From positions 186,001 to 250,000 of the forward strand of contig JASANG010002537.1 of NCBI GenBank assembly GCA_030248215.1: a stretch of DNA of 64,000 bases. Direction: 5' to 3'. Made by a program: the position numbers and the translations under genes. Position 1 is the first letter of the stretch, and each line of letters starts with the position of its first letter. Positions 31,714 through 60,959 of this stretch are shown in pieces. The stretch comes from Enoplolaimus lenunculus. Taxonomy: Eukaryota. The notes beneath the pieces were generated by a model that saw only the letters and a program-made list of their open reading frames with translations, had not been told where the DNA came from and searched no databases.

Positions 31714-34700
31714 TTAAAACCACGGGCTCCATTCTTCCGATGTTCTTGCGTACGATAACGGGTCTGTCGCAATTGCTGCAAAAGAAACACCAATACATTC
31801 GTGGTAATACATTTATTACTATAAACACCCAATGCAGCGATGTGTGTACGTAAGCTTAGCAATACCGATGCTACCAAAATTCCCGCACATTATTTTGATC
31901 CTAAGTGCTATTTCCCTGGCTTCTCCACAGCTTGAAAATTTCCGCCGGGGGGCGTTTCCTGGGGGGCAGCTGATTTTGCTGCGGGCAGTTTTCCTGGGGC
32001 CCCCAGATGATCTGGGGGGTCCTGGGGGGCAGGCTTAAAATTTTACAAACCGACTTTTTGGACCATTTTTTTCATTCTAGACCGTGTTTCCAACTCAACG
32101 TTAGATTACTCATCGCTCAACATGACAAAAATTTCTCGCAAACGCTAATAACAATAATTTTAACTAATATTACGTATATACTGACAACTAAACCAGAAGT
32201 TGAAAGAAGCACAATTATATACCAGTCGTAGTGGGACTACATTTATTGAGCGAAGCTCGATCGCACGTAAGCAATTAAGGTAATATGCAAATTAGTTGTT
32301 AGCTAACTATTCATTTATTGGTTTTGGAGATTTAAATTTTTGACACAAATGCTCGTAATTGCCTCCTCATAAATTAAGGTCTTCGTTTCGATTCATACCT
32401 AGCAAACAATCAACTTGTTGTTCTGGCGACAAGCCACTAACTGGATATCCTCTTGGCAAGCATTTGTCATTAGCTGTTAAAATATCATCGTATTTACCGC
32501 ACAAAACGGTTTCGATGTTCGAACAAAGTCTTCGCGAGGATGCTGTTGCACAATATTTTAATTCGTCCCTAAAAATAAACAAATCTCGAAAACAAATTCA
32601 AAGCTCAAAAAGAGCACAATTTGAGAGCTTACGGTTTATGCAAATGATCTCTACCATCACTTACACTTACTCTTGGCTTCTGGGCAGTAGCATTTTAGTC
32701 TAGTATGCGGTTAGTACAGTGCTGTAGCTGAAGGTAATTCTCTTACCGGGTTTATGCTTTTACAGATACATTTGAACCTGACCTTAACAACTTTTGATCA
32801 TGTTCGCCTCCAAACAGCAATAAACAAGCTTCAATCCTAAATTTTTACGAAATTAAACCACATAAAAATTTATGCTGATTTACTTTAAGATCTTGACAGG
32901 ATTTTCGCCGTCCAGTTTTCGAGACACGATTGCATTTCGATATTTACAATTCCAGACGTCCACGGCCGTTTTCATGAATGCATTACTGTCTCCGTTGGCA
33001 TGCAGTTGACGCCGAATACACTGCTGAAATAAGATGCTAATCCCGAATACAAAACAAAACAAAACAAAACAATTTTAGCAGTTCAAATACGTCTACACAA
33101 GATTTTATTGCGACACGAAAACCCGTAATAGTTTTACCTAATATGGTTGATCCTCTTAACGGCTACTAAAATAACTTTTTTCCGAGTCCTATAACAAAAC
33201 ATTCAAAATCAATTAACACAAACTGCAGCTGAGCGCTGACCCAGGTACCTACAGTCACAGACAGAATTTAGTGCCCAGCAGGGTTCCAACAGTGACTAAA
33301 TTTTGCCAGAAGAAGAACAAGAAAAGGAATTGGATGTCTTTGCAGGACTCGGAACAGGGATTTGAAATATAATTTTCATCCCCGAGTTACTGTTGGAACT
33401 TTCAGAAAACGTTGCCAAAAATGACTTAAACGAATTTTGAACTATTTCACCATCAAGTTTTGTGAAAATACATCAGAAACAGCACTGATAAAAATTAACT
33501 AATTGCAAAAACACTCATTTTGATATGACAATTTTTGAAAGACGTTTCGAATATTTAAATGATTATGGATAATTTGACACGAAACTGTACAAATTTCAGT
33601 TTCTGCGTCTTTGAACGGAGAAACTGGAACAGGAATTGAATTTTTGCAGGAATTCTGGAGGAACAGGAATTTCGGTCGAACACTATTGGCCGGGAATTGT
33701 AGTTGCACCTGCGGTAGCATTTTATAATGGTTCAATCTTCTTTGCTCGCGACCAGGCTTTTACGGTTTCTTAAAAGTTTAATACTAGCAATTGTGTCGCG
33801 GTTATGATTGCAGTAACCGAAGTTAGGAACACGACAGCGATTGCATTTAGTTATTCTCTCCGAAACTGTACATGTGCAATGACCTTCGTATCACAGACTT
33901 AAAAACGCATTACAACTATGGCTTCAGCAACATAATTAATTAAAACACAAATTTTAAACAAATAAACCTGAAAACACCAGCTGTAAAACCTACCACCCAG
34001 TCAACAGAGGACTGTTTGGTCAGAAGCTCAATTGTGTTTAGTATCAAGCGTTTTTCGGAACGAAATACCCTCATTGCATGTTGCATTACACGACGATATT
34101 TTCCATCTACGCCCAACGGAAGTAATACGTTGACCATTTGTCGGGTCATTCGAAAGGGCACAAGCTCGTATAAGTGAAGAAACTGAAAATGATATTGCGT
34201 AACCTTACAAAGTTACACTTCACCAAAATTGGAACACAAATTTTGCCAAATTTTCAGGCGGAATCGAAATTCTGATGAAACCCTAGTGCGCAATGTGCGT
34301 TTACACACCATACACGAGCATCAGATGTGAAGCGTAATTTTACTAAAAATCGACAACAGCAACAAATGCTCCGGTAAATTTCCACCGGAATTGATTATTT
34401 TGGAACTAAATTTTGTTCAGTGGAAATTAAGCATTTCACTAAAAAATTACGATAAAAATAAAATTAGTACTGTATATCAACCTTCACAATCACTTAAAAT
34501 AATCCATTTAAGGTAGGTTTCGCTACCGTGGATAATGATACTCTAAAATACAGCAGATTAAATAAGCACTTATCTGCCACTAAGGTTATTCCACAAATAT
34601 TATAGCAAAGAAGTAGAATGTATTTCTAACTTTCCGGTTCTTGTAATTTTTTTAAATTCCGGTTCCGGTGAATTGTAATTCCGGTTGCACCCAGCCCACA

Positions 34701-37700
34701 AGATATATTCCGTTTAGTAGAAGAGCCCAATCTTTCGGGACACAACAAATGTCCAATTTATCTTGTTACTCCTTCAATAACAATCTCAATCTATTGAGTT
34801 CACTAACCTGTAGGTTAATTCCAAACGCGCATCCAAAACCAAGTCCTGTCACTGCTCCCGTTTTTTCAGACAATAAAAAGTGTCCCAAGTGCCGATCACC
34901 AATACCAAGCAAATAATGCGCTGCACACATAACGGCAAGTGAGCCACTGTAGATATTGCTGATTACATACAAAGCGTCTGTTTGATTTGTAAACTTAGCA
35001 AATAGTCTTTTCCTGAAGATGGAAGAAACACTGAAAATGTCTTAACATGATGATATTAAAAAGGTCGTGAATACCCATACCACTACACTTTTAAACATAT
35101 TGCCTCACCAAGTCAGCCAGTAAAGACAACAAAAATAGTTCTTCCTACTCCAGAAATCAATACTACAACCAACCACAATTTAAGAAAATATTTAGTACTA
35201 AATCCGGCTTCTTCGACAAAAACGAAACTCCTGCTTCAATCGTTTGCTTACTGCAGTGGAGTCAGCAATAAAGGAACATACCTGAGCATGTCAAATGGTA
35301 TGGCATCTTGCGCTGCTCTTATTCGTTTTAACGCACACTGATTAGATTCATTTGCAAACAGGCGATTGAAACTCCCAGAAGGCAACTCTGTTTTTGCCCG
35401 GTGCGAAAATACTCTGCGTGCCACACTACTAGAATGAATAAAGCAATATTTATTATACTAAAAGCATTGAAAAACAGTCTCGAGATGAATTCCAATAGTT
35501 ACTTGTGAATGCATTACTAGAACGATTTGTTAAAAACAATCCATTATTATGATACTATTACACACAAAAATCCAAAAAACCATAGCTAACATAGTATAAT
35601 AACAGTTGCAACACATACTAAACTAAAACCGAAAATCGTTGGTGGTAGCAATTTTTTCCGAATAGGCTTGTCTTTAATATGAGAGGCTATCACTTAATTT
35701 TCCTGCTAAAATTCAGCTGTCTACCAAACATATCGGAAGAGAGTCGCACAGGCCACTCCCCTTATGACCACCCCTATCATTAATCAAGCAAAAAGATTTC
35801 GTTTCAGCTTACACAGCTGCTTCTTGCTCTTCTGTTGTCAAAGCCATATTGCTCTGGAAATCAGCAGCATAAGGCAAAACTTCGATAAGACCAAGCCTAA
35901 AATATACCTATGAATGGAGGCAAAAACTAAAATCCGAAAAATGTAAGTGGGCAACAAATCTTCTTCTGTATATATATTACTGTTGTGCAATAGGTTAACA
36001 ACGCTACGTCTTAAATGACATAAACCAAAAGATAGCGAGTTATTGCGTTGAATGGAGGCCACCGACAAGGGCATAGCGAGTGGGAGTTTAAGAGGCAAAC
36101 CTTCTCCTTTTCTAATTTTTGTCCACATCGATTTGGAAATTTTACAGTCGGTGGCACAAGTAACCCCATTACTAAATCCCGGCTACGCCCCCAGGTCATC
36201 AATTTGATGACCGTTTGTAGTTGATGATGTAGCTTACTTCGGCAATATTGGTATCGTATCAGACATTTAAGCGCCAAATTACGATTACTCACCTGGTGGT
36301 AAGAGGAATGATGGCGTATGTTTCAATTCTTAAATCGCGTGTTTGAATTGTTGTGTTTGCTTGAAGTGCATGATTCATCAGATGTAGTAGCTGCATAATC
36401 CTTTGATCCGGCCGTAAATCCTTACCGCTTTTCACCAAAAATTTGTAGTCTTTGCCATCACTACCAATAAATGTTAGCCTCAATGGCATAAAATTGGAAA
36501 CAACAGTTTCTACCTAGAACAACAGCATAAATTAAGGTAACACTTGCACATTAAGTACACACATTTTGAAAAACTTGTAACTTTGTTTGGGTTTGCCTGT
36601 CATCACAAGAAATGTAAGGGTGGCGCTATACCTGTCGTCCGGTGGCATGCGGCGATCGCACATGCATTGAACACAAATCACCTGTCATTATCTGGAGTAG
36701 GAACACTATTTAAAACGTAAAAAGCAAAACAGAACGCCAGATACGCTGTAAACATTGTATTATAACCTACCTTCGTGGCAAAAGATCTAATGCGTATATG
36801 ATGCTGCGGTAATGGTTTGCGTCTGCCAGTATACTGTCCTGGTAGTTCAGGTAGCTCAGGTGGTCGTTCACGCATACCAGAACAAAACTCGGCTAGCCAC
36901 GGCGAAAACTGAGCAAGATTTAGCGGAGTTTCTTCATCAGAATCGAAGGATGATTGCACTACGTTAACGAGATCACGTGTATTTTCTACTAGTGCCTTAC
37001 GCTGAAATTAAACAGCTAGCTGGTACACTGAATCAAAATTTTACCTGGAGGAGGACAACCTTAACCGACAAGCTCTATGTCCTTCAGAACAAGAAATCAT
37101 TATTCATTATATATATACTCATGGGCATAAAAATACGGTATTTTACGGTTTTTAGAGCAGATAAGGTTCTCGAAATTTACTCCAAAACAACATACCTGGA
37201 TTAAAATAATATGTAAAAATTACAATCATAACGTACATTTGTCAATGTAAAGAGCGAACCATTTTTGCCAAACGCTTGATCAACAGATGCGCGAAATTTC
37301 TGTAATTTGCCAAAATAACATAATTTACTGAAATAGACGAGTTTCACTTCATACCAATCGTTTACCATGATCATCTACTATATTCATAACAAGTAGCGTT
37401 TGTTCTCATCTATATTCACATTTCTTTTCAACAAAGCGTTACAATATTTCAACTCATTTTCAGAACAAATAAAATAAAACACCATAAATTAAAATGCAGT
37501 ATCGGATCGCAAACGTACATTTACAAACCATTCAATTGAGGCTAATAAAAATACAAGGGTATTTTAATCATTGCGGATTTTTCAACTTTCAACATTACCT
37601 TGGAAAACATTAGTCTATATTCACCGGGTCTTGGAATATTGTGATTGGACTGAACTCCGCCTGCAAAACTTAAAGAATGTTAAACGACGAACGAAGCGGT

Positions 37701-40700
37701 TCAAAAGCAAAATCAATATCAAGTATGTTGTTATTTATCAATGGTACCACAAAATTTCATTTAGCTATAATTTTTAATGGTACCACAAAATTTAGTTTAT
37801 CATGGACGACTGTCACGAAGACATTTTCAAAATCAGTTTCCATACACCCTACTATTTCTACATCTTCTACGTCGCTTATTGTTTAGCCATAATTAAATTT
37901 CATGCGAAGGAATTTTACTGTGAAGGGCTTGGTGTCCGTTTTCGTTGTTGGGTGGGTACTGCAAGACGCATGTCATTTTAATCGCATGAACACAATACAT
38001 GAGTTAAGTGAATATTACTTTTTGGAAATAGATCCGACATCATTTCTTCGTACAATTCCATTAACTGATGGTGCGAAGCGTTAGAATCAATAAAGTGTTG
38101 TATGTCTTCGCAATAATTCTACAATATATGATCAAAAATAAACTAAATCTCAAGCGGTATTTCCATCTGGTTTTATAATTTTATGCTGCTGCGTTGTATT
38201 GACTATCGCTACAACCGGCAAAATGCCAAAACAGCAACACTTAGTTTAAAGTAAAAAGCATCCTCCATGTTCAAAAAGCAAGATAAAAACCAAAATTAAA
38301 TTTATTTAGTGCCTCAAATATTCGGTATACAGTTGTTTAGCCATTAAAATTACTGACTGCCAGTCAAGTTCATACGGTCACGGCAAATGATACCAACCTT
38401 AAATCGAGATGCTGGATGATTTAGGTAACCAAGCGCTTGTACGAGATCAGAAATGAGAGGCAAATCATCAATTTTCTTGTCCATCCTGAATAATACTTAA
38501 AACGTTTTGCAGATTCAAAACTTCCAACAGAAACAGATACAAAAACGTTTACCCAGTGCGTAATATTGTAAGACTAGAAAAGAAATACTACTTGATGCTA
38601 CAATTTAGCAAAGCAACATGGAACCCCTTGAAACATATATCAGAGCAGAGTGAGACAGTATATTACATTGCCGAATACTGGATAGTGCATTTTTACTGGA
38701 ATAAAACAGTAACCAGATATATCTTCTGAGTTCGTAGAGGGAGTAGTACAAAAGTATATGTTCATTAAATACGAATTTTATAATTGTTCGGTTGAATTTT
38801 TCATTTTTAGTTCCGTGTATCAAAACCATAACTTCAAGACTTGCCCACAAAGCTAATCGCAGAAAGATGTTAAAGATGCTTACCCGAAAAAAGCTGTTTA
38901 ATGACATTTGGAACCACGTATATTGGCTTTTTGCCGTATATTAAATGGAATCCGGACATAATCGCACCCTGAGACAGAGCACTCAATTTTTGTATTAACT
39001 ACATTACTTACGATTTTATGCTATTACAAATTTTTTACGCGAGGGACTAGGGAAAACTTTGCGCATACCCACAAAAATGCTTACCAGTTTATCAAACATT
39101 GTGCATCATAGTTTAAATTGTTGCCAAAGTCATTACGATTTAGCTTATATGGATATACCATAGCCTGAAAAACAATATCACATGAACAGGATAAAATTTT
39201 CCGAAGGAAGGAACGCTTAACAAACAAAATATATTATTAACGAAGACAATGAAAACGAAATCTGTCTATGCGCTTAAAGACTGAAAAAAATTTAAGTGCA
39301 AACTAGAAATTAATCGGAAAAATACTGAAGTCAAACTAATCTATAATCGGCGAACTACACTTCGCTGCCCCACGTAAAACACAACTTCGTCTAAATTTAA
39401 AAAAGATTTACCGCAGGATATTTTTCTGTAATTCTTCGCAGCAATTTGTGCAGTGCCAACCCTTCAGGTTTATTAATTAGTGATATCATTTGATCAATCC
39501 AATCAAAAAACAACCACTCTGGTATAGGTTCCACCTAAATATATGTCACAGCATTTTATAACACACGTTAGGGTAGGGTTCACGCAATTTTTGCGATATG
39601 GTAGCGTTAACGTATGACAATTTTGAAATTTGACAAGTAGTGTTAACCCTACGAAATTTTTCATTGTGAACGATGCATTACTGCAACCAATTAAAACATA
39701 TAAAAAAGGAAACACAACAAATTAAAATAACGATATAAAAAAATTTGAACATACTATTCAATGGTGTGTAAATACCATAGTATAGTCCACTGAAACATTC
39801 AATCCCATAATTTGCAGTCAACACTTATATGAACTTACATATAGCCGATATTAACTTATTAAAATCGCTCTCAAGCAAAAACTGAGTTCTGTTTATCTCC
39901 AGTTTACATTAGTAAATGCTACATAGCAACAATGATAAATGAACAGATTATAAAATAGAAAGACCGCTTACATTTTCTTCAAATATTTGTCTAGTCGCAG
40001 ATGGATATAGTTCAAGAACGTTCAATATGTTCGGAATGCGGTTTAGCGTAGCAGCGGTTGCAGAATACTTAATGCACAATAGTAAGCACTTGATAAGAGT
40101 ACATGCATATCTGGGACCATCAATTGCTGCAGATAGTTTCGCATCTGCAATTTAAATAGCACTCAACTCAGCAAAAGCAACTATTTAGCGAAATAGTTCC
40201 CTAAAATCAAGAGCATAGGCAGCGGGGACCCTTCAAAAATCCATGCTAACGAAACATTAATGTTATGAATCGAACCTCAGTCTGCATGTTTATAATAGTA
40301 TTCTAATTTGCATCCAAATGGGATAAAGCATAACTTAATCTAAAAGCTTCGCCAAAATGTTAATCTAACATCCTTATCAAAGTCTCGCCTACCAGTCCTA
40401 CTAAAAATACTCACCTCTGAGCATTTTATCGCAATATTCAGCCAATTCAAACCGTCCAAACGAATAACAAGTATTGTCATCAACTTTGTCCTCGAAGACT
40501 GCACTGGAATAGAGCTCGAAACATCTGTGAATCAAACAATTGGTCACCTGCAGAAAAGAAAATGATTACAGAACCATTCAAATTTCAACCAGTATTCTGA
40601 AAAAATATAGAATCAAAGTAAAAACATTATTTTAAAATCAAATCCCTCTTTCAGCCAGCTGCATGTTGGATCCAATAAAATGTTCTATCGAACACAACAC

Positions 40701-46700: not shown

Positions 46701-49145
46701 ATTTCATGAATACACAAACACATAGTTTATTAATCGTTTCTGCGCCCATTTGCATCAAACCTTGGGTCAATATAAATTGTATCGAATGTATTTTGCAGGG
46801 TTCCATCGAAATTCCAGCAAAAATTGATCCATGTTCCTGTTCCGGCACTACGGAACGAAGGTGTCGGAATTTTTACGGCCATGATGAGTTCTTTTGTAGG
46901 AGTGATGAAAACGAAAAATAGACCGGGAAAAAATCGTTCAAGGCACGTTTTTCAAGAGTTTACTAAAACGTATATAAAACTGTAATGCGGTGCTGAAATT
47001 TATTTCAAATTTCGATTCCTGTTCCGGCAAAAAGTTCAATTCATGTTCATGTTATGACAATATTTAGATCTTGTTGAAATCCTGGCATTTTGTAAAATAT
47101 AGACACACAACTTACTTTGCAAGTTTGGCCCATTTATCACTTGCAGCTTCGTTACTGTAAGTCTGCCGGCGCGTAGGCAAACAATGAACCTGAAGACTTC
47201 GGTTATATAAACACTGTACGATTTCGTGTTCCAACTGCACCACAGCTGAAATACAAAATCGGTAACATGCTAATTAAACAGACGTGGTTTAAACCGACTA
47301 CCCTCGTAAGGTGACAAAGGACGTAAAACGTGTCGTTCCTGTCGTAATATGCCAATTCTAGCTTACTAGTTTCTCGATACAAAAGCGTATTAGTCTCCAG
47401 GCAATAATTAAAAATAACATTGTACAAACGAAAACAGGGGAACATAATAGCACAGCACGGGTTAACGGTGCACCCTTTCCTTAATTACGTAGTCCAGTTT
47501 AACAAATCATTTAATGTAATTTTGTAAATAGAAAAATTTCCAGTCTTACTATCAGCAGAATGTCCTGTTTCCAAAACGTTAGTCACTTCAACTAGAATAA
47601 CCTGTGTGGGAAATGTCCATATCAGAGGAAGCTCATATTTTGACATTGTATAAACATTGCGCGCAACTAAAGCACGACGGCAAGCAGAAAACAATTCCTG
47701 ATAGAAACACATTACCAAGCTACCGTTAATTACTTACTTGACATATTTGATTGCTGCAACTCAGAGCAGGTCAAAATATAATTCGTATTATAGCATGTAT
47801 CGTTTGCATATTGATAACTGATCAGCTAAAACACGGTTTTAAACAATAAACATTTTAAATAACCAAAACATACAAAATAAACAATTGTTTTTACGGTAGG
47901 AACGATGTTCTACAAATCATAATAACCGAGCTTGTGGCAACAGCAGAAATGAAATACAAAAAGTTTTTGAAAGCTACAACCTAACTCAGGTGAAACCAAT
48001 CTGTTTTAACAGAAATGTTGCGGAACAAAAACCAACCTTGCTATCGATTCATAATATACCTGGCTTAAACAAAATAATATTTATAGCTTTAGCCAATGAA
48101 CATTTCAAAATACCGATAGATAACTGGACTGTGTAATAAAATAAAGGGTGCACCGTCAACCCGTGCAATGCTATTATATGCTCTTTCTCTTTTCGTTTCT
48201 ACAATTTTATTTTTCAAAATACCGATAGTTTTCACGTACATTATCTGCATATTGCGCTGAGTAACCGCAAGTTAGCATTGTATCTTCAAGCATAGATCGC
48301 ATGAGTTGCACTAAATCCAAGCAAAGGTGAAGCCGTTTGACTTCACCGCTTCTACTGCAGCCGCTTGTATCGTACACATGATTTCTGAGACTTGTAAAAA
48401 ACGAACTCAAGACAACAGCCATATCAATTGAACTTTTCTGAAATAGTTACAAACGAAAAGAAATGGTGTGTTTTATCGTTAACTTAGATTTTTCAATTTA
48501 CAAATTTCAAATCAGTAAGACGCCGTTCACATAAAAATTTTGTTCAATGGTGCAACAGATTCTCATGTAGCACTATTTTTAGCCATCTTTTTCATATCAC
48601 AGAATTCTACTTCAAATATGGTTATATCCAGGTCTTTACAATCTGATACAGACCACAAAATTTTAGAATGTCAACCCGTTAAAACCTTAGAATGTCAAAC
48701 CTTTAATATATACGCGTGTGTATTGTGTGCGTAGCAATTTGTACCCTGTAAAAATGGTTTCTGTGTTATACTGCATGTGGAGAGTTTTGAAAAAATTTTG
48801 TGAACTGTGATAACCCTTGCATTATCATGTACCGCAAGATCAGGGATAGAAGAATTTTCTCTTAAAGCAAAAGAACCTAAACATTTTCTAATTTAACTAC
48901 AAACCACAAACCAATTGTTACGCCTTAGCTTGCACAATGCGACTATTCAGTTACTTATCATACTTGCTCAATGTCAAAAATTTCACCACTAGTGAACGAC
49001 AAATTACCTGATCGAGTAAATAACTAAAATTTTCCACGCCTTTGTACTTGAGGCAAATTTCGAGAAACCGTTGCGTTACAGGAGACTTGCAGCCACGAGG
49101 TTGATAACTTGATAAACTTGTCAATAAACAAGCTCTTGGCTTTCG
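31714..49145 (-). CDS. DNA-PKcs-derived portion: end of M-HEAT, FAT, PIKK kinase fold (pseudokinase), FATC
   Basis: Peptides [191 protein letters not shown] are collinear with remembered PRKDC (GQYDGRGKPLPEYH, GLSEETQVKCL, ATDPNILGRTWEGWEPWM*). Confidence 0.92.
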
Positions 49146-52100
49146 CTATAAAAAGTGCTAGTCAAAGTAGCTGCAAGGTTTGCAACATCAAAATGTCAAA
49201 GCATACGTGGCACATCAAAGTTCCGACCTAAATTGACGTGAAATTCTAAAAAATTTATATCTCTAATTATGTGCGCCCCGCCAGGACAAATATTTACAAC
49301 ACAATACCGAGTCGGTTATTTTGCACCGAAAAATACCAAATACATATTTTCTTAACAAAAAATTCGTGGTCCGGGACTCAGAACTTCTCAAAGCCAAAAC
49401 CAATACCCTGCCAAGAATGATTTACTATAAATGTATATATCCAAGCGGTCGCGTTACAAATTGTACAGGAGTAATGCGCGACGAACGGTTCGAACAGGCA
49501 GACATCCCTTATATATTACAGGCATACATACATGTTTCAATATATTTTGTGAGCTTTTTGTAAAAAGTCCTTAAACCTACATTTTAACGGTAATTCTAAA
49601 AATGTTGTTTTATTTCATAAATGTTAGGTCCAAGTTCAAGTTTATGCAATGAAAAACTACAGGTCCGGATCTCTGGGTATTTATTTTTAAACTTTGCATG
49701 TCTGATGAAAACAGTGCCCAAGGTGCGTAAGTAGTTTTTCAATTTTAACAAAACAGATTACGTTGGAATTAAAATATTAGTTACACACAGAATAGTATAC
49801 TACTACATTAAACTGTGTGATGTAATATTGCTATATTTTTAAAGCTTTGTGTCAAAACATCAAGTAACAATTAAGATAGTTTGACACACCTCAAATGCTA
49901 AACTTAGAAATGTTTTGCTTCCAGTAAAATTAAAACATTTGTACTGCAGCGCTTGGAAATTTTTAATATTAAGCTTAAAGAATATGGTGTATGAGTATGT
50001 GTTGTACCTCTTTAGTGCATCTTCTGACGGAATTTGTACCACAAATGGGCAATGAAGCGTTTCGGCGAGATGCAGAAGGTGAAGAATTGCAACGCTCGAC
50101 ACGGCGTTTGACCATGCGCAATTGTAATTGCGAAGTGCTAGCTTAATACGAAAAAGTAACAAAACGCTGTAAACGCACGAAAAGTTAAACTTAAAACTGC
50201 TTCTCCACAGCTTGAAAATTTCCGCCGGGGGCGTTTCCTGGGGGGCCCGCAGGAGTTTCCTGGGGGGCAGCTGATTTTGCTGGTGGGGCAGTTCTCCTGG
50301 GGGAATCTGGGGGGTCCTGGGGGACAGGCTTAAAATTTTGCAAACCGACTTTTTGGACCATGTTTTTCATTCCAGACCGTGTTTCCAACTCAACTGAAGA
50401 TAATAACAAAAATTTTAACTAATATTACTGACAACTTAACTAGAAATTGAAAGAAGCACAATTATATAAAATACAGATAATCTATAATTGAAACTGTGAT
50501 TAATATATATTGTATATATTAGTTACAGCTTCAGTTTATCATAAGGCTCAGGCGGGTTGAACTTGCTGTTGCAACGTACTTTCGAATGCTGTATGCCCTG
50601 AAACGGTCTTTATATAATTGTGCTTTTTTCAGTTCATTATTGAATTGTATTAGTTACTACGGGTATTTGTAACGCTATTAAAAATTATGACTACTCAGCG
50701 TAATATAAATCATATTTTGCCGAATATCCGCCTCAACAGAAGTCCAGGTCTTTACGCTTTAACATTGAAAATTTTTGGCCTAGAAAAGTCCTGGGGGCCC
50801 CCAGCCAAAAAATTTGCTGGGGGCATTTTGCTGGGGGCGGCCAAAAATTCGCCGGAGGGCGGCAAAATTTTCGCCGGGGGAAACTGAAAATTTCGAAAAG
50901 TGCTGCCCCCCCGCTGTGGAGAAGCCAGTAAAACAGTGGCCAAATATTTAAAGAGCATAAACTCTGGGTCAGGGACCGAAAATAAAAATAAGATTTTTAA
51001 CAACACTTTTCAATATTTTTATCTGCTTTGAATTACCGCTTTATGCAACTACACTAATAAATCGCCGCCAAAAATTATTTTTTACTTAATTTTTCACTGG
51101 CTACTGTCGCCATACACTTAGAACAGGCTCGGGACAAATCACACTGTCTCAAAACATTCTCAGTACAATCCAAATTTAAAGCTAGTGTTGTTTTTGCTCT
51201 TGGGCGAACCAAACAGACTGGAAAACTTTTAACATAGCGTGACGTTATAAATGCGGATGACCCATAATTTTTAAACGATGCCTTAAATGTCTTAAGCGCG
51301 AAAACGCCATTATTTGTGCTTTGTCACAATAACATCAAAGTGTTTTGGTTGGTAATTACTTATCGCTTTTTCACCTCTTTGGTCTTGGTTTGCTAACCAC
51401 CGAGACCGGGAAAAGCGAGACCGAGACCAGCCAAATCCCAAGACTTGCCGAGACCGACACCAGCCAAATCCAGAAACTTCCGAAACCGAGACCACACATC
51501 CCTGCTCTGGGTAAGGCAATAAGCAAGCACTAGGTAGGACCCAAAAGAATATCCGGCCCCGGGTCCGGCAAAAAATCGTCATCCGACTCCGACTCAGGTA
51601 TTCTACAATGCCAGATATTTATTGCTGATAAGTATAACAGAACTCTCAGTATTATAATATTATTTATGACCAAAATGACAAAACTCATCTCAAATATCCA
51701 ACTCCGGTGTTTTGCATAACGTAGAAACGTGATAAGCACATCCAAACATTCATATGTTATTTAAAGTAAGTCGCAAATGTTGCTATAATCAATGCCGATA
51801 TTTGATAATCAACATTTAATCTATAAATGTCGATATTGAGAATGAGACTATATCTTCCTAATTATTTAAATGCTTCAAAAACATACCTTGACAGCGCGAA
51901 AGCCTTTCACTGTACTTTTGATCTCTTACTGAGGCACAACTGGCACGACGGCGTTTGGCGGCAGCCTTAGTAACTGCTTTAACTCGAATATTGTTCTCGA
52001 GCCGAGGTTTAACGCCATCAGCGTCGAATGATGACCTGAGTAATCGGCGTTCTGTAATTCCATTAGCGACTCCTGAAAAGTGAGAAAAAATAAAAATACA

Positions 52101-55100
52101 CCAACAACATTTATACAAAAGAAATCCATAAACTTTGGACTGCACAAACAGCGAACAGTGTATATACAGCTGCCTTGCTAATATTCACAGTAAATGTAAC
52201 TGCTGTCATAAGTTAAACGGGATGTTAAACATTCATATTAGCAATAGCATCGAAACTAAAATGGCTAAAATCTTTTGGACCACAGTTTTAGAATCTCATG
52301 CCCAGGAAATTTTTTTGAAAAGGTAGGTATACACTTTTGAACGCAAAAAGTATTTTTGTCACACAAAATACCCAGATTTTCAGAATAGTGTTACATATAG
52401 AAACATTATTCTTAGTCGAAAAATTACTATTCTGCTGTATGCTCACTTTCTCAAAGTAAACAGGTCGCAAATTTGTTCCCTTCGCTCGCATATCTCACAT
52501 GTATAACCCAAAAGCAAAACGTGTTTTTCAAGATGTGTTATTTTTGCAGAAATGGTCTCTAAAACTATCTTTTGCTCAGAAAAAGTATATTTGGTCCAGG
52601 AAAACGCCCGTATACCACGAACAAATAAATATTGCTTCATACCTTCACGAGTTTCTTGCAGTTTTCGTTTACGCGAAGAGAAATCGTTTACTTTGACGCA
52701 TTCTACATCATCTTTTTTCGCAGTTAATTTTTGAGTTCGTACTCCTGTGTATCGAGTTTTCCAGGAATCTTTGATCTAAAAGAGCAATAATTCGTTTAAG
52801 AAATTTCTCTAATAAGCGGACGGTGCGTGAAACCCCTTTACATTCGTATGGAAAGCCCTATATACATGAGAGCACTCTTTTTCGCTCCTACATCACATCT
52901 CCTCATCTAATTGATGCTTGGCGCAGAGTACCTGCGCCACAACTTACTCGGTCTACCTTTAAATATATACGTATTAGGTGTCTACCTCGGGAAAGCGCCA
53001 AGAGCATTAAACAGTTAATTGAAGTTATTTTGAAACATACCTTTGAAAAATTGACCGGAACGGAACATGAAACAGACGGCGGCAGCGTTTTTGGCGCAGA
53101 ACTAATAATTACTGTTTGTGGTTGTCTTAACCTCGGCACGTTTCTTCTGCGAATACTTCTCGTACGACGGGTTCGATGGATGAAAGGTCGTAGTCGTTTA
53201 TCTGTCGATGACAATCTAGTGGCAAAATAGCGTTGCGGCGCCGTCGTGGTCACGTTTGTACAAATCTTACGTATTTTAGCAGCAGGTCCAATACTGATAC
53301 GTTGCTGAAAAGTGGAACCAAAAGCTACTACTTTGTCGCCACATGTTGTTGATTCAACTGAGCGGTTAGCAAACCTCTTTAAGGCCTCAGTACTACGTAT
53401 CGTAGGCTTAACCGTACATTCGGGCATGGAAGATCTTGTAGTCGGCTGTGAAGGCTGTTTTTGTTTCAGACTACTAGCGTGAGAAATATGGACTGACGGC
53501 TGTTTTTGATGCGTATCGCCTTGCGGTTGATCATCTCTCATCTGAGATGGCTGTTTTTCTTGTTGCCTGGGGGATTGTTGCGCTAGTTCCAGAAGCGGCA
53601 ACGACATGTTGTGTTTCTGTCGAAGCTGGCGTCTTGGCAGTTCTTGCTGTTGCAACGGTGAATGTTGCCGTCGCTGCTGTCCGTGTGGTTTTTGGGGTTG
53701 ATGATCTTTGTATAACGGAGATTCCTTGCTTTCCGGCAACTGTTGAATTGTCAAGTGTTTTTGTCGAATTTGGTGCTTGTCTTCTTGATATTTCTGATTT
53801 TGTTGTTGATGCGCCATGTTATTTTCTTCATGTAGCGTTTTCATGGGTGAGGTTTCACAGTTTTCGGGATCAAGCAGGGTACCATAGCAATGTTTTTCCT
53901 CACGTTGCGTGCGCTCAACCAATTGTTGAAGTAGCTGTTGCGATACTTTTTCGTACTGCTGCAGCTGATTATCTTCCGTTCTATGCTTCCATTCTGATTT
54001 CTCTACCTCATATCCTTTGATATATCCGTTCGGGTGTTGTTCTTGTTCCTCATTGTCATTGTTTACGTTATATTTCTGTTGTCCGCTCTGAAGCACACTA
54101 GGGAAGAACTCCAGTCGTCGTTCAAATTCTTGCTGTTGTTTAATCGGCATCAACTGCTCTCGTTCATCATTAAAGTTTTGATCAGCATGTTGCTGTAGCT
54201 GACTGTTCTCGCACTCCGGGACAGGCAATTCTATTTCAGGATCGTGCAATTTCTCTGTGTCTTCCATCAAACATTTGTTATCACCGGAGCACAAAGAATC
54301 ATTCGATTTGTCCGAATTAGGTATAGGCGATGGCAATGTCACCTCATTACAAACGGATTCCGGACAATTATTGTCCCGTGGCAAGGGAGCCGAATTTCGA
54401 GGTGTTAACATACCCTGGGTTCCACAACGAGACACAACCGGTGTAGACAATGCTTCCGACAGTTTTATACTGGAAGCCAGATGCGGCAGTGTATGTTTTT
54501 GCTGATGTTGCTGCCCAATTATAGTCGTTGCATTTGTCAGCGGATTAGCAATACGAGTGGGCAACAGCTTAGAATCCATCGCAGTACCATGGTCTGTTTC
54601 GCCAAAATACACCAATTCCACAGGCTGGGTTTTTAAAAGCTCGGTTCGACTTGGTAACACGCGAACGAGAGTATTTGGTTCTGTCGTTGTAAGCAGTTCC
54701 GTGGCGTCAAGTGACTGACCTTGTAGCTCACGAAGGATTGCAGTGAATTTCGGCGTTTTTGGTGACGAGGTATTTATCTCATCATCGTTGTCTCCAATAC
54801 TGCTACTATCCGTACTAGCCGTTTCGTCGTCACATTCGCCATCAGCTAAACATTGATTGTCAAGATTCAGCTCAACGTCGTTATTATTATTATTATTATT
54901 ATCACTAACATTACTGTCATTATAATCACATTTATAGCTGGCAAACGCTATCGATCCTTTACTGCCACCCAGCAATAGTGAACGTTTAGTCGAACTGTCA
55001 AATTTCGTCTCATCTGCAGAATTGTCGATGATTGGGCTCGCGTTAAGGGTGGTACGCGATTGTTTCGACTCAGCATCTGGTGGAACATAACCAGTTTTGT

Positions 55101-58100
55101 CAAAGATTACCGACACTGCGCTTATATTGTCTGCACGCACGGAACCCCAACGCAGTAGCGCATGCCGCACTATGAATCGGGCATGATTCTTGTGACCCAG
55201 AATTTCCTACAAATCAGTAATGGCAATTATTAAACCGAACCGTTACCAGCACGTTTTACAATGCAAAAAATACGCACAATTACGTACATACTAACTGGAC
55301 AACCGAACTAAACGTCTTTGCTTTGAATCTTGCGAAACCTGCAAAATAAACACCGTTAACTAAGTGACGGAAGAGTTAGTTAACTTTTCAAATCAGGCGT
55401 AACGCTTACAGTGAAAAGTTTGTTACGTATTAACCTTTGACGCCTAAATGAATTTCAAGACAATTTGATAATTCTCTGGTGATCTTACAAAATTTCCAGT
55501 TTTCAAAATCTTTAACGGATGAAAATACTTACGAGCCTGCTTGAAAATAAAGCAATACCATGCAGTCACAACAGAGTAGTAGTTCAAACATACGAGAAAT
55601 TTCATATTTAAAAACCTAAACGGTAAAAGGGCTTTCTTCGTCAATTTTAAACTATCGCATGAGCGTAGTCTGTGGGGGCAAGGTAATGATGGCTCCCACA
55701 ATGATTCCTAATTTTGGTAACAAATATGTATTATAAAACCACTTGAGTTTTGTATAAAATGAAAATCTCCACATTTGGCGTGACCCTTCTCAAACAAAAG
55801 TCTTGGCTGCGCCCATGGCCAGTGTGTCTATGCTTTGCACTGTAATATAGACCAACACACCCGTTTTTGCAAATTATCTAACGCTGTTTCGCATTTATAT
55901 TCATGAGAGTTGATGACTTCAACTGCATGGGCCGGGCGAACTACGTTCCAGACACCATCAGATCCCAAAATCAAGCAACTCAACCCAGAAGTAATTTCAT
56001 GCACTGATACATCTGGATCTGGCGACACAACGAATTTATCTAGAGCCGAATTGTACGACCATAGGTCACCTAAAAATAACAGCCTTTCATATTAGTCCTA
56101 ATTTAGGCTTAACCAATTAAGTTAATATACAAATTATATATTAGCTAACAGTTCGTTTAACGGCTGTGAAGGTTTATAAACAATTTATTCGATTCCTCGC
56201 ATCCAAAAACCTTGTTAATACTGAAATGAGATTGGTTATAACACCAATAATCAGTGAAATAATTTAAAAAGCCATAACTTAGAATTAACCAATTTAGTTA
56301 ATATGCAAATTAGCTATTAGCTAACTACTCATTTATAGGTTTTGTAGTTTGATGCACTTGTAACCAGGGTGCGACCGGAATTTCGATTCAAAACGAGTTC
56401 CGGTTCCGCTTCGGAGTCCGATTGCGCAATCAATCCGAATCGAATTTTGTCTCGTCATTTAAGCAAATATGCAAATTAGCTTTTAGCTAACTATTCGATA
56501 ATCGCTTTTAATGGTTTGTAGACAATTTATTCAGATTCCTCGCACCCGAAAACACATTATTGCTGAAATTAGATTGCTTGTATCCCTAATAATTAGTAAA
56601 ACATCGTAAAAAGAAAAACGCCTAATTTAGGCTTATCAATTATGCTTATATGCAAATTATCTATTAGCTAAGTACTCAATTATCGGTTTTAGACGTTTGT
56701 AAACCATTTATTCAGATTTCTCGCACCAAAAAATCTTCAGTAAACCCTAATAATTATTGAAATAATTTAAAAAGTCCTAATTTTGACTGTAAACAGTCTA
56801 CGCAGATTCCTCGCACCCAAAAATCCTTTAGTGCTAAAATTAGATTGCTTCTAACTGTAATAATTAGTGAAATATTGTGGAAAGTCCTAATTTAGGCTTA
56901 ATTATGCAAATTAGCCTGCAGCTAATAAACGGCTTAACATTTTAAAACCCCAATGGGAGGTTAACCCCAATGCGAGGTTAACACCCCAGGATAATTGGCT
57001 TTCAAACAAAAAGTTTATCAAAATCGGTTCAGCCGTTCCTGAGATTCTTTTAGGACGGACAGACAGACAGATGGACGGGACATCCAACTTTCGACCCCCA
57101 AGTACAAAACATAAACGCATGGCTTATGTAGTGCGACTACTGGTGATGATACACGTTACAGCGTACACTACACACTGCTGAGAATGCGGCTCCTTCGTAT
57201 AAATAGTAACAGTCAAACGATGTGCTGTTGGGCAGGGTGCAACCAAAATTACGGCTCCGGTATTTTTTCACCTTCCGGTTATTGGTCGGCGGAAATTAAG
57301 ACATTTTACTAGAAATGACGATAAAAATTAAATAGATTTCATTCATATACTATATAAACCTTGACAATCGCCGAAAATAAGCGATCGAAGTAGACTGCGT
57401 TTCCGTGGATTATGAAAATACCTATCTCCAACTAGGGTTATTTTACCAGTAACATTGAAAAAAGAAAATTAAAATGAATTCTTTGGTGGCATATATTTTT
57501 AAATTTGCGGTTCCGGTAGCGTTTCTATTTTTTAAAATTCCGGTCCCGGTTCCGGTAAATTGTAATTCCGGTTGCACCCTGCAATTGGGCAATGCTTACT
57601 ACCGGTTTCACGTGCCACTTACCAAGCGATCTAGCAACTGCTAGAAACGGTATGCGGTCCAGCGGCGTTGAACGTCTGATTGGCCCTGTATGAGATGGGC
57701 GCTTTGGCCGAGCCCAAACCACCCGAACAACGCCTGATTTGCATGCAATAGATCCACCAGATTCTCGAATCCGCACGTGTTCAGTCGGTGAATCAGGTTT
57801 ATGGTCAACAGTAAGCTGCCGCGGTACTAAAGGCATTGGCGGCTCAGGTTTCATACTCTTTCGTGCTATTCTTCGTTGCATTATTGCTTCGACGTGAGCA
57901 CAATTTTGAAGACAGTCGCCTTTCGTAAGAACTAAAATAATTACGGTACTGCACGCACGGTGGCACTTATAGCTGCACCATAAGTGTTATCTGAACAGCT
58001 ACGCAATGTAGTGCCGATCACAATCAGTTTTCCCGAGCAGCTTGATAAAGAACTGTCACCATCACTTTTATCAGTTTGTTATATACCTCTAAACTATGTT

Positions 58101-60959
58101 ATAATCAATTTTCAAATTCGCACTAGCCATGATAACTTCGCGACAGCCAACTATTTGCGACTTACATTCTCTTCCATTTTTCACCATTTTCAAGCACAAT
58201 TTTACACAATAATCATTCTGAATGCTTACCGCTGCGATGTCCAGCAACTATAGCTGAATCACCTACGTGACCAACATAAATTTTTCCGTTCCGAATAAAA
58301 GCAACTGATGCGGTTGTTCCTGATGTACTTGTATAGCCAGATGCAGTTCGCGGCCATCGATCTACAAAAACAGTCTGCATTGATGAGTACAATGGGCATA
58401 GCACCTTCATAAGCACCCACGATTACTTTGTCTGTGATCTAGATATTACAGAATTTTTGCTCATAAGTTTCAGATTTGGATTTCCGCGAAGAAAAATTTA
58501 GGTCAGTGTAATATTCAAGCCCACAAATGTACACTGCTTAGAAACTAATGAATTCTTGCCACCTCCATTTTACAGTACCGAGGGAAAACGAGATGTCCTT
58601 AACAGTAACGAGTGAGATGTTAAGCTTTGTCAAGTAAACATTTCGGATACCTTAGGCCACGAAATAAAGAATTGTTAGCTACGTTCTGATATGACGAATG
58701 TCATCTAGTATTACATTTGAATTAATTATCCGGCTCCAGCTCCGGTCTCGGCTGGATATTAGATTATTTAGATTATCCGGCTCCGGCATAACATTTTTTA
58801 TTAAATCGAATTTTCCGACATTAAACTGAATCCAAATCTCCGGTCGATCTCAATATATATCAGGGATCGACCAAATATCCAGTTCACTTTAATGTCTGTA
58901 AAAAATCTACATCAAAATCTAGTTATGATATTGACATAAACGTAACGGATACTGGGTATTTGTAGTTCCGATCTCCAATAGAAAAAACTACTTTTTACAT
59001 GAGAAAATGAAATACCAGATATTTTGCTGGGACTGCGACACAAGGTTCCCTTTTAATATCACGTAAAAACTGATATCCGTATCCCGCATAAACCTACCGG
59101 ATACCGGATATTTGCGGTTGTGGTGCCGAATAACATAAACCTGCTTTTCACAAGTGGACGCCTTTAACGTCTTGCTGAATTTCATTTCTGGGAAATTCAA
59201 AAAGTTCAAGTTTTCATACGTTTCTTCAACTTTTAACTTATGTTGCAGTTTATCAGCAGCAATTATGAACTCTGTGACGGACTAAAACCTTAAGCACGCT
59301 GGACATACAGCAAACAAAATAAATTAAACATATACAATATCCTTTAGCCAGTTCCTGTTCCGGTAAAAAAGTCAAATGTCCGTATCCGGTCTATATTGGG
59401 TAAATTAATATCCGGTCGCACCCTGCAGTGCAATCACAACCAGAAATTTTTAGACGGAATACTATTTTCTTTCATGGCGAGTTTTACGCCCTATCCACAC
59501 ATGCTCGTTTTTTCAGCAAAAAAACTTGCACTGCCACTTGCATGTGTCAGTTTGGTCTCAAAACTATTCTGAAGCTCTTGCAGCTGCAAATTATTCACTG
59601 GAATTCGTGTTATTATTCGCACGGGTGTGAACACACTTGTAAGTCGCTTGAATTTCTTACACCTGCATTTCGATTGGCCAACTAGAAGACATGATATTTA
59701 GCGCTTCAGACTGACTGGACTTGGTTTAGGAGATTCAGTGAAACAGGTTTGATACCCTGCAAATTTGTGACATTTTTGGTAATAATTTTTAAACGGATGG
59801 ACCAAATGTGACGACTTTGGTTTCATTTTACCTCGTTCATGGCAAAAAGTTAGTCCGTTCCCGCTTCTCCGTTTTTATAAGTTTCAGCTGAATGTTTTTT
59901 CAAAAATTGAATGAATGTCGTTTACGTGACATGACTACAGACTCAACAATTGTCTGTCAACACTCAAAATCAGGTATAGGCCAACTGAAAACTGGTGTTT
60001 AGGAAGAGCGAGACTCCTATCCCTAACCTTTTCCAGCCATTAAAACCACTTGTTTTGCTATCTGAATCTACGAAATGTTACACATGTGCGTACGTTCTAA
60101 ACCTACCAACTTCTTTCCACATTGCATGATGGGTTGCCAAAAATCCTTCTCGTATTGCAGAGAGCACTTCATCATCCTTTTCTGAATGAAAGGATTTTAT
60201 GGAAACAATGTTGCTCATTAAATGTTTGCGTGCAAATTGGGATGCATGATATCCGCCATGACCATCGAATACGCCAACAAAAACATATTGCACGCTACCT
60301 TAAAAGTAAATATAACATTGAGCAGTATCACAACTTCAAACATCTGTAGTGCGTAGTCGGCTTTAACTAACACTGTGACCGAACAGAGCATTCATATCAT
60401 CTGCACACAAAGTAAATACGTACACTTCACTTTAAACAAGTGATAAAAGTCGTTTGTAACAGTGATACTGAATGATACTTTTTTAATATTGTTCAATGGC
60501 CAGGCCATCACGCAAATTGTCAAGTCTCGGGATTTGGCTGGTCTCGGTCTCACTTTTTCAGTCTCGGTGGTTTGCAAATCGAGATCAAAAAGGTGAAAAA
60601 GCAACAAGCAATCACAAAAACTTTCCTTGGATCGCAACTTTGGCCCGGAAGTATCTGAGCATTTCGCCTACCAACACAGACAGCAAACGACTGTGGAGCA
60701 CCGCTACCTGGTTGTACAGCGATTGAAGGAACAGAATGACCCCTCCGGTTACCCAAAATTCAGCTCCTTCCTAACCAGATACGAGTTGCGAAGGTAACTT
60801 CATTTACCTATAAAATGCATGCACTTACTTAACAGCAAAACATAAAAGAAAAAATTACGTACCATCAGCAGCGCGGCTAACATGCACAGCGACCGAATCT
60901 TCCATGTACCGACGTCCGCCTTGCGACATACATGCCGAAATTCTCAGATAAGTGCCCAT
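31714..60959 (-). CDS. predicted PPM1D(Wip1)-DNA-PKcs C-terminal chimeric protein, ~40 exons, ~2,560 aa
   Basis: Manual phase-consistent exon chain: 60959-60863, 60298-60107, 58361-58230, 57931-57623, 56069-55861, 55206-53041, 52775-52643, 52072-51887, 50141-50008, 49145-49008, 48437-48240, 47825-47738, 47245-47116, 46107-45969, 45760-45677, 45416-45312, 44750-44613, 44393-44295, 44157-44055, 43795-43690, 43212-43038, 41565-41388, 41010-40829, 40547-40415, 40144-39972, 39534-39412, 39164-39085, 38485-38398, 38118-38019, 37660-37599, 37299-37237, 37001-36771, 36513-36293, 35896-35813, 35428-35282, 35012-34808, 34182-33994, 33023-32884, 32568-32399, 31775-31714. No internal stop found; one GC donor is used. 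Confidence 0.75.
31916..32220 (+). mobile_element. left half of the GC-rich TIR element seen at 50198-50928
   Basis: gcttctccacagcttgaaaatttccgccgggg..caaaccgactttttggacca..gaaagaagcacaattatat is nearly identical to 50200-50467; it is interrupted at 32222 by a Helitron-like end. Confidence 0.75.
32222..32330 (-). mobile_element. terminal fragment of the Helitron/Helentron-like family
   Basis: ccagtcgtagtgggactacatttattgagcgaagctcga..gtaagcaattaagg is the reverse complement of ~13280-13337. Confidence 0.65.
33279..33690. mobile_element. CAGGGTTCCAAC-type MITE (relatives at 5908-6078, ~14520-14833, 46797-47084, 61081-61210)
   Basis: Shared (c/t)agggttcca(a/t)c terminus and recurring ggaacaggaatt / aattcctgttcc subterminal motifs. 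Confidence 0.55.
42140..42800. repeat. dispersed repeat family with gagaccgagacc motifs (copies at 51215-51505 and 60530-60760)
   Basis: cttggatcgca.ctttggccc..gcatttcgcctaccaaca.agacagc is shared by 42186-42245 and 60626-60685; 42390-42475 is the reverse complement of 51215-51300. Confidence 0.7.
47443..48178. repeat. ~55-bp inverted repeat pair flanking a coding exon
   Basis: cataatagcacagcacgggttaacggtgcacccttt (47443-47478) versus aaagggtgcaccgtcaacccgtgcaatgctattat (48143-48177), extending inward to agtccagtt / aactggact. Confidence 0.8.
50198..50928. mobile_element. GC-rich TIR MITE (~730 bp) in the intron at the linker/DNA-PKcs boundary
   Basis: Termini gcttctccacagc / gctgtggagaagc; subterminal ctgggggg and gccggggg repeats at both ends. 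Confidence 0.7.
53041..55060 (-). other. long low-complexity linker (acidic, then Q/H-rich, then basic) within a 2166-nt exon
   Basis: ORF 52903-55170: poly-N encoded by a (TTA)n tract near 54881-54901, an acidic DECDDET..DNDDE patch, Q-rich QQHQQKH, QQQQEL, HQQQNQ runs, and basic RRTRSIRRR. Confidence 0.8.
55095..60959 (-). CDS. PPM1D: PP2C-family phosphatase domain, PPM1D/Wip1 orthologue
   Basis: [43 protein letters not shown], the Wip1 B-loop [59 protein letters not shown] and RADNISAV. All PP2C metal-binding aspartates are present. Confidence 0.95.
56090..57142 (-). mobile_element. Helitron/Helentron-like (DINE-1/HINE-type) non-autonomous element with internal tandem units; partial MITE nested at ~56365-56460
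   Basis: Repeated gattcctcgcac..ctaataatta..atgcaaatta..attagctaa units, aaaatcggttcagccgttcc, a (GACR)n microsatellite at ~57053-57078, and the end GTAGT-gcg-ACTAC-TGG|T. Confidence 0.6.
57233..57581. mobile_element. hAT-like MITE
   Basis: TIRs cagggtgcaacc / ggttgcaccctg; degenerate 8-bp TSD ctgttggg / caattggg. Confidence 0.7.
58861..59425. mobile_element. CAGGG-ended MITE
   Basis: Termini cagggatcgacc / ggtcgcaccctg; interior shared with 26221-26645. Confidence 0.6.

What the first reader, a model, noticed from the sequence alone, without database searches (positions are those of the whole stretch)
31714..60959. Wip1/PPM1D phosphatase fused in frame to the FAT-kinase-FATC head of DNA-PKcs
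Seen: the long PPM1D exon has a strong donor (AAG|GTATGT at 53041). It links through stop-free, phase-matched exons (52775-52643 phase 0>1, 52072-51887 1>1, 50141-50008 1>0, 49145-49008 0>0) directly into exons collinear with the last ~1,400 aa of DNA-PKcs, ending in a proper FATC (WSPWF*). I saw no N-terminal DNA-PKcs sequence between the two parts, and there is no room for it. Known: PPM1D removes S/T-Q phosphates written by the PIKKs ATM, ATR and DNA-PK, and is normally a stand-alone PP2C; I know of no described PP2C-PIKK fusion. Inference: this is a ~2,560-aa eraser built onto a writer's scaffold, possibly targeting Wip1 to DNA-PK or PIKK complexes to switch off damage signalling. The ~30 retained introns indicate a DNA-level rearrangement, not retrocopying.
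Basis: partly seen in the sequence, partly recalled or inferred. Interest (0 to 1): 0.95.

Follow-up and report, generated by a model that had tools for sequence, protein, structure and literature searches.

The report
Wip1 joined to dead DNA-PKcs kinase
In this animal genome the gene for the damage-signal-erasing phosphatase Wip1 runs in one unbroken reading frame into a partial DNA-PKcs copy whose kinase has lost two invariant active-site residues, so it likely makes a phosphatase carried on a predicted-dead kinase scaffold, although no transcript has yet been seen.

Summary
Forty minus-strand exons (60959-31714) splice into one stop-free 2,563-aa frame: an intact PPM1D catalytic domain, a ~700-aa low-complexity stretch, then FAT-kinase-FATC of DNA-PKcs.

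1. The kinase is predicted dead (N3927→H and DFG Asp3941→Gly; both invariant in 42 of 42 orthologues), while most of the fold is conserved.
2. A second, normally conserved DNA-PKcs gene starts 21.6 kb downstream (ATG 10151) and runs off the window, so the fused part is most likely a partial duplicate.
3. The three 'linker' exons may be the degenerate ABCDE loop of DNA-PKcs, which would put the join at 53041|52775. This is suggestive only (p 0.02-0.06; two tests null).

The weak link is intron 9 (50007-49146): weak splice sites, with poly(A) signals behind a read-through stop. Yet the next exon looks coding and has no start codon. No RNA run, genome or close relative was available. Best reading (55%): a chimeric gene making Wip1 on a TRRAP-like pseudokinase scaffold, probably with shorter Wip1 isoforms. 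Main rival (30%): two separate products. The scan had not noted this before.

The parts
60863..60959 (-). Exon 1, PPM1D start (ATG 60959), with the RYMED metal-binding motif
55861..60298 (-). Exons 2-5 (60298-60107, 58361-58230, 57931-57623, 56069-55861): PP2C catalytic domain with DGH, B-loop and SDG motifs
   Evidence: Pfam PP2C; PDB 8t2j PPM1D
53041..55206 (-). Exon 6, 2,166 nt: end of the PP2C domain (DN motif) plus a ~680-aa Q/E-rich, then basic, low-complexity tail; ends in a strong donor (rank 4 of 39)
   Evidence: no Pfam hit
52776..53040 (-). Intron 6 (265 nt), the likely PPM1D|DNA-PKcs join; no AATAAA/ATTAAA; read-through stops after 45 codons
50008..52775 (-). Exons 7-9 (52775-52643, 52072-51887, 50141-50008), 151 codons; possibly the degenerate ABCDE loop of DNA-PKcs (~aa 2590-2750)
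   Evidence: for; against:
49146..50007 (-). Intron 9 (862 nt), the weakest link: donor rank 35 of 39, acceptor rank 39 of 39; read-through stop after 10 codons; ATTAAA 49967, AATAAA 49685 and 49614, TATAAA 49259
49008..49145 (-). Exon 10: open and coding-like in the fusion frame, no ATG in any frame; aligns to the YRPD region but has lost the motif
37237..48437 (-). Exons 11-31: end of the M-HEAT region and the FAT domain; first in-frame Met of a stand-alone product lies in exon 11; one GC donor at 41387
33994..37001 (-). Exons 32-37: PIKK kinase domain; K3753, D3922, H3924 kept; N3927>H and D3941>G in exon 34808-35012
31714..33023 (-). Exons 38-40: PRD and FATC with the conserved terminal Trp; stop at 31716-31714
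1..10151 (-). Second DNA-PKcs gene, N-terminal part (ATG 10151; large exons 3903-1813 and 1401 to beyond base 1), running off the window
   Evidence: (DNA-PKcs_N 1e-57, CC1/2 5e-70)

Best explanation
The PPM1D exons and 31-34 DNA-PKcs-derived exons form one open 2,563-codon frame, and the locus likely makes a fused protein: a Wip1 phosphatase with intact metal-binding motifs, tethered by a long low-complexity linker to a FAT-kinase-FATC module that is predicted to be a pseudokinase. [quoted passage not shown] Inferred function: like TRRAP/Tra1, the dead head would act as a scaffold or targeting module that brings Wip1 to PIKK partners or phospho-S/T-Q substrates and so shortens damage signalling; without the N-terminal HEAT cradle it would not load on DNA ends by itself. 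Shorter Wip1 isoforms ending in intron 9, or at the alternative acceptor 50166, are likely made as well.
For: Single stop-free frame over 40 exons, with T at -5 in 39 of 39 acceptors. Intron 6 donor ranks 4 of 39, with no poly(A) hexamer in introns 6 or 7. Exons 7, 8 and 10 score as coding in the fusion frame (+6.7, +8.7, +5.2 bits/100 nt); 0 of 338 intron windows reach exon 10's score; the read-throughs after exons 6 and 9 score -5.6 and -23.2. Exon 10 has no ATG, so it needs an upstream coding exon. A 5' end at 52775 would meet five out-of-frame ATGs before the first in-frame one. Kinase residues N3927 and D3941 are kept in 42 of 42 orthologues but lost here; near-invariant columns kept: FAT 33 of 41, kinase-FATC 69 of 87, against Trichinella 36 and 83. 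The downstream DNA-PKcs gene keeps 56 of 70 (Trichinella 52). Exon 7's best match lies 6 residues off the collinear diagonal, p 0.018-0.063 by band width.
Against: No transcript, read or database protein shows the join. Intron 9 has the weakest acceptor and a weak donor, with a stop and three poly(A) hexamers inside it. Exon 10 plus the first 15 nt of exon 11 are ATG-free, as a 5' UTR would be (chance 0.03-0.04; exon 17 is ATG-free too). Exon 9 scores higher in another frame (+8.4 against +2.4), and an alternative acceptor at 50166 (score 5.3 against 4.6) gives a stop after 9 codons. A 3-codon ATG exon candidate (49215-49207) sits behind a TATAAA in intron 9 (5 of 27 control introns have such a candidate). 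The DNA-PKcs origin of exons 7-9 failed a free-start test (80-216 of 300 shuffles as good) and pairwise BLAST. Conservation in relatives could not be shown. The function is wholly inferred.
Confidence: 0.55

Rival explanations
1. Two products, not one. Wip1 ends in exon 9/intron 9 (or at acceptor 50166), and the dead FAT-kinase-FATC is a separate ~1,330-aa pseudokinase expressed from the Met in exon 11, as a trans-spliced downstream operon gene or from a promoter in intron 9.
For: Weak intron 9 sites, read-through stop and poly(A) hexamers; ATG-free exon 10; TATAAA and a mini-exon candidate; a TAYYTT 'Ur' motif 24 nt upstream of exon 10. A FastTree put the head beside Trichinella (0.986), and Trichinella has operons (PMC7668243, passages).
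Against: Exon 10 is open and coding-like upstream of that Met. The Ur motif occurs before 18 of 39 acceptors. The last AATAAA is 469 nt from the acceptor, against 74-213 nt intercistronic distances for 16 curated Trichinella regions. Intron 30, which must be spliced, scores as low overall. The nematode placement was not recovered under a mixture model.
Confidence: 0.3
2. Split gene, not a duplicate (compatible with the fusion): the downstream gene stops near aa 2,590-2,750, so the organism's only DNA-PKcs is in two pieces and the cradle re-associates with a dead head carrying Wip1.
For: Order head - transporter - BolA - N-terminal gene on one strand is what a block transposition or circular-intermediate rearrangement would leave; the window shows only N-terminal sequence for the downstream gene (to ~aa 1,350) and no second copy of the head.
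Against: The window ends before the question can be answered. The downstream gene keeps the Forehead residues E932, H935 and G943 (R924 lost) while the head has lost the YRPD motif that packs against them, which fits a second, intact YRPD elsewhere. Kinase-dead DNA-PKcs is embryonic lethal in mice (PMC8394720 table).
Confidence: 0.12
3. The DNA-PKcs copy is an unexpressed pseudogene that happens to be in phase with PPM1D.
For: Catalytic residues, YRPD and ABCDE sites lost (4 of 24 near-invariant linker columns kept); one GC donor; no expression data.
Against: 1,377-1,528 codons without a stop over 31-34 exons (naive chance 2e-39 for 1,528 codons), splice consensus kept, 102 of 128 near-invariant FAT and kinase columns kept.
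Confidence: 0.05
4. Assembly artefact joining PPM1D to a DNA-PKcs 3' end.
For: No reads could be laid; a repeat element sits in intron 8 (50199-50468).
Against: No N in the window; introns 6 and 9 match nothing else in the window; a mis-join would not explain the phase-matched coding-like exons or the dead kinase.
Confidence: 0.04

Closest known systems
PPM1D/Wip1 (PP2C-delta; PDB 8t2j; C. elegans PPM-1.D)
   Same: Catalytic domain with the B-loop and metal-binding motifs. In C. elegans the C-terminal part anchors CHK-2 and sets localisation (PMC8849337, passages), so a non-catalytic tail with a targeting role has precedent.
   Different: Here the tail is ~700 aa and runs in frame into ~1,400-1,500 aa of a PIKK; no such architecture among 150 + 120 listed DNA-PKcs relatives.
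DNA-PKcs (PRKDC) FAT-kinase-FATC head
   Same: Collinear, 27-29% identical to animal orthologues over ~1,250 aa; K3753, D3922, R3923, H3924, W4124 kept.
   Different: No N-HEAT or M-HEAT cradle; YRPD and T2609/2638/2647 lost; N3927>H and D3941>G. PMC8021618 (passages) lists N3927, D3941 and the YRPD residues as invariant in 85 species.
TRRAP/Tra1 pseudo-PIKK
   Same: A PIKK head without catalytic residues, used as a scaffold; described as the only PIKK pseudokinase (abstract starts of PMC8926402 and PMC8625110).
   Different: Derived from DNA-PKcs, not TRRAP (best hits); keeps the ATP lysine and DRH; lacks HEAT repeats; carries its partner enzyme covalently if the fusion is real.
Chimeric genes by partial duplication and exon capture (general class; recalled, no call)
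   Same: Intron-containing duplicate placed behind a host gene and captured by splicing.
   Different: Joins the opposing enzymes of one signalling pathway.

Membership tests
PPM1D/Wip1 | PP2C fold with metal-binding Asp motifs (ED, DGH, SDG, DN) | tested here: met
   Motifs read; DGH and SDG aligned to 8t2j; Pfam PP2C on 4 exons
PPM1D/Wip1 | PPM1D-specific basic B-loop | tested here: met
   only PDB hit 8t2j, E 4e-16
PPM1D/Wip1 | Phosphatase activity on pS/pT-Q | not testable with these tools
   needs assay
DNA-PKcs | FAT-kinase-FATC collinear with DNA-PKcs | tested here: met
DNA-PKcs | Catalytic GDRHxxN and DFG | tested here: not met
   N>H and D>G; 42 of 42 orthologues keep both
DNA-PKcs | YRPD motif | tested here: not met
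   39 of 42 orthologues match YR.G..PD; here only Y and G align
DNA-PKcs | ABCDE threonines 2609/2638/2647 | tested here: not met
   whether exons 7-9 are this loop at all is inconclusive
DNA-PKcs | N-HEAT, Forehead and M-HEAT cradle in the same chain | tested here: not met
   absent from the chain; present in the separate gene at 10151
TRRAP/Tra1 | Orthology to TRRAP | tested here: not met
   kinase exon's best PDB hits are DNA-PKcs (1e-11), then TOR/Mec1; no TRRAP among 43 listed
TRRAP/Tra1 | No kinase activity, scaffold role | not testable with these tools
   predicted from residues only
Nematode-type operon (SL2 trans-splicing) | Poly(A) site ~75-215 nt before a trans-splice acceptor, Ur motif, spliced-leader reads | tested here: inconclusive
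   AATAAA 469 nt upstream; Ur motif present but common (18 of 39); lineage unresolved; no reads

The most novel reading that the evidence does not exclude
DNA-PK turned from kinase into phosphatase: the organism's DNA-PKcs gene is split, the cradle is made by the downstream gene, and the only head is the dead FAT-kinase-FATC carrying Wip1, so the complex assembled on DNA ends erases S/T-Q phosphates instead of writing them.
Probability: 0.1. Interest if true: 0.95.

Novelty: new variant of a known kind. Interest (0 to 1): 0.72.

Why it matters
If the fused protein is made, it is a natural PP2C-PIKK chimera and a PIKK pseudokinase that arose independently of TRRAP. It would give a direct test of what a DNA-PKcs head binds when it has no catalysis and no cradle, and of whether tethering Wip1 to a PIKK scaffold sets how long damage signalling lasts. 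Even under the main rival (two products), a conserved, intron-rich, dead DNA-PKcs-derived head is undescribed in my searches. It appears lineage-restricted, which limits its generality.

Tried and rejected
Transcript evidence: no RNA holder was listed for 51800-56100, so no reads were laid; this is no evidence either way. No whole genome is held, so the rest of the downstream DNA-PKcs gene could not be read.

Database copies of this protein or a close relative: none found. Searches (exon 32, 136-2,000 aa, 0 of 47 candidates; exon 6, 1,265-3,610 aa, 0 of 4,792) are weak negatives. One search's best 150 hits were at most 61% identical, on short stretches. None of those 150 matched the PPM1D part, and none of the 120 listed of 441 carried Pfam PP2C. 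P0046 (2,570 aa) looked fusion-sized but is a spider DNA-PKcs fragment. The one metagenome locus (L001) is an off-frame chance match in a bacterial transporter gene. The Atlas gave only generic PP2C clusters.

Homology of the end of exon 6 to DNA-PKcs: rejected (p ~0.6; p 0.85-0.99). Exons 9 and 10 alone find nothing in the PDB; exon 8 was not searched there. ORFs at 41953-41531 and 50366-49860 were left out of the model as repeat-containing intron sequence. Acceptor 50137 was rejected (G at -5, score -0.6).

A faster rate for the head than for the N-terminal gene was inconclusive. The lineage is unresolved: next to Trichinella in FastTree, unplaced under LG+C20. No structure or complex was predicted, because only single exons could be submitted. 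Five look-ups in the scan's notes gave nothing relevant.

Full report
OBSERVATION. I read the window on the minus strand and rebuilt the gene model. Forty exons from ATG 60959 to the stop at 31714 give 7,692 nt and one frame of 2,563 aa with no internal stop. 38 of 39 introns are GT-AG; intron 22 needs a GC donor. All 39 acceptors have T at -5, against 0.33 for any AG, which is an independent check on the model. The window holds no N.

THE PHOSPHATASE. Exons 2-5 hit Pfam PP2C. Three of four exons searched have human PPM1D (8t2j) as best solved relative, including the basic B-loop; the start of exon 6 found no PP2C. The ED, DGH, SDG and DN motifs are in the frame. Activity is inferred from these motifs. 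Exon 6 adds ~680 low-complexity residues.

THE KINASE IS PREDICTED DEAD. Against human DNA-PKcs the catalytic loop reads DRHLGH for DRHLNN and the metal site GFG for DFG. Of 150 hits from the representative library, 146 have the Asn, 137 have DFG, 9 deviate and 4 could not be parsed. In 42 full-length orthologues N3927 and D3941 are kept 42 of 42 times, while K3753, D3922, H3924 and W4124 are kept here too. PMC8021618 (passages seen; supplements not seen) lists N3927, D3941 and the YRPD residues as invariant in 85 species. Near-invariant columns kept are FAT 33 of 41, kinase-FATC 69 of 87 and linker 4 of 24, against 36, 83 and 20 for Trichinella. The fold is therefore still constrained while catalysis, YRPD and the ABCDE threonines are gone. 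That, and 31-34 stop-free exons, argues against a pseudogene.

A SECOND DNA-PKcs GENE. An ATG at 10151 opens a gene with Pfam DNA-PKcs_N (1e-57) and CC1/2 (5e-70) that leaves the window at about aa 1,350. It keeps 56 of 70 near-invariant columns (Trichinella 52) and Forehead residues E932, H935 and G943, but not R924. A sugar transporter and BolA lie between the two, all on the minus strand. No genome is held, so I cannot say whether this gene is complete. A partial duplicate is the simpler reading; a split gene is not excluded.

WHERE IS THE JOIN? MAFFT and hhalign place the start of exon 7 on a conserved Ser-Trp motif at about aa 2,590 of DNA-PKcs, and exon 9 on the basic motif before YRPD. 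For: a global test gave z 5.0, 0 of 1,000 shuffles, but its anchor was chosen after seeing the alignment; exon 7's best ungapped hit in a 4,106-column model falls at the collinear place, though its score is not above shuffles (185 of 300); with a band fixed from an unambiguous anchor 320 residues away the hit is 6 residues off diagonal, p 0.018, 0.026 and 0.063 for bands of 30, 60 and 100. Against: exons 8 and 9 are not significant (Fisher p 0.07-0.23 for exons 7-9); 6 of 524 windows of exon 6 did as well as a replacement; a free-start test was null and put 68-100% of the posterior for the start in exon 10; pairwise BLAST to amphioxus found nothing. Exons 10-12 score no better. I put the ABCDE-loop origin of exons 7-9 at about 60%.

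IS THE JOINED mRNA MADE? No RNA holder was listed, so this rests on sequence. Splicing from exon 6 through exon 8 is well supported: donors rank 4, 19 and 4 of 39, introns 6 and 7 have no poly(A) hexamer, and a 5' end at 52775 would meet five out-of-frame ATGs first. Intron 6 does hold in-phase alternative donors and an ATG in the read-through frame. Intron 9 is the weak point: donor 35 of 39, acceptor 39 of 39, a read-through stop after 10 codons and three poly(A) hexamers. Intron 30, which must be spliced, has an equally low total. Exon 10 is open (6.5% of intron windows are) and coding-like (+5.2 bits/100 nt; 0 of 338 intron windows, which were in the training set), while the read-through after exon 9 scores -23. 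Exon 10 has no ATG (chance 0.03-0.04; exon 17 shares this), so it either needs exon 9 or doubles as a 5' UTR. Exon 9 scores higher in another frame, which can only be entered by a poor acceptor, and acceptor 50166 would stop Wip1 after 9 codons. A mixture of fused and short isoforms fits all of this best.

LINEAGE AND OPERONS. FastTree grouped the head with Trichinella (0.986); a mixture model left it unplaced among long branches. The strict -5 T is nematode-like (recalled, no call). Trichinella operons have intercistronic distances of 74-213 nt in 16 curated cases (PMC7668243, passages); here the last AATAAA lies 469 nt from exon 10, and the Ur motif before it also precedes 18 of 39 acceptors. 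An operon is possible but not indicated.

MECHANISM. Shown: the frame, the domain identities, the lost residues and the second gene. Inferred: duplication and exon capture; a fused mRNA; a pseudokinase scaffold that targets Wip1 to PIKK partners or substrates. Precedents: TRRAP/Tra1 as a scaffold pseudo-PIKK (abstract starts only) and the C-terminal anchoring role of C. elegans PPM-1.D (PMC8849337, passages). Full-length kinase-dead DNA-PKcs is embryonic lethal in mice (PMC8394720, passages and table); a head without the cradle would be expected to avoid blocking DNA ends, which may be why it is tolerated (inference). That Wip1 reverses ATM-dependent phosphorylation is stated; PMC2954851 was seen only as a listing.

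NOVELTY. Searches for PPM1D with DNA-PKcs/PRKDC fusions, DNA-PKcs pseudokinase or paralogue, PP2C-PIKK fusion and nematode DNA-PKcs or Wip1 listed no paper that, by title and abstract start, describes this; the library lacks most subscription journals. No listed relative carries PP2C, but no close relative of this organism was found, so conservation is untested.

VERDICT. Real sequence feature; a chimeric PPM1D-pseudo-DNA-PKcs locus with about 55% odds that the full fusion is expressed. New variant of a known kind, interest 0.72.

Noticed in passing
window 10151 to 1, minus strand: Second DNA-PKcs gene with two very large exons (~2.1 kb and >1.4 kb), unlike the 62-231 nt exons of the fused copy; runs off the window.
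   Followed up: partly
window ~29121-21496, minus strand: Sugar transporter gene (Pfam Sugar_tr) between the two DNA-PKcs pieces.
   Followed up: partly
window ~15870-14890, minus strand: BolA-like gene; its first exon was not located.
   Followed up: partly
window 41387: GC-AG intron with an unusual A at -1, required to keep the FAT frame.
   Followed up: partly
window 61900-61820 and 61690-61610: Two tRNA-like stretches upstream of PPM1D, seen by eye; ARAGORN called no tRNA; possibly SINE heads.
   Followed up: partly
window 12807-13355, 32204-32333, 56110-56900: A ~170-nt tandem repeat family present at three sites in both orientations.
   Followed up: no
window 31919-32221 and 50199-50468: The same GC-rich element sits in the last intron and in intron 8 of the chain (85-93% identical), so insertions continued after the locus formed.
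   Followed up: no
window 53400-54600, minus strand: The PPM1D tail is unusually long and Gln/Glu-rich, with several S/T-Q sites that could be substrates of the phosphatase itself.
   Followed up: no
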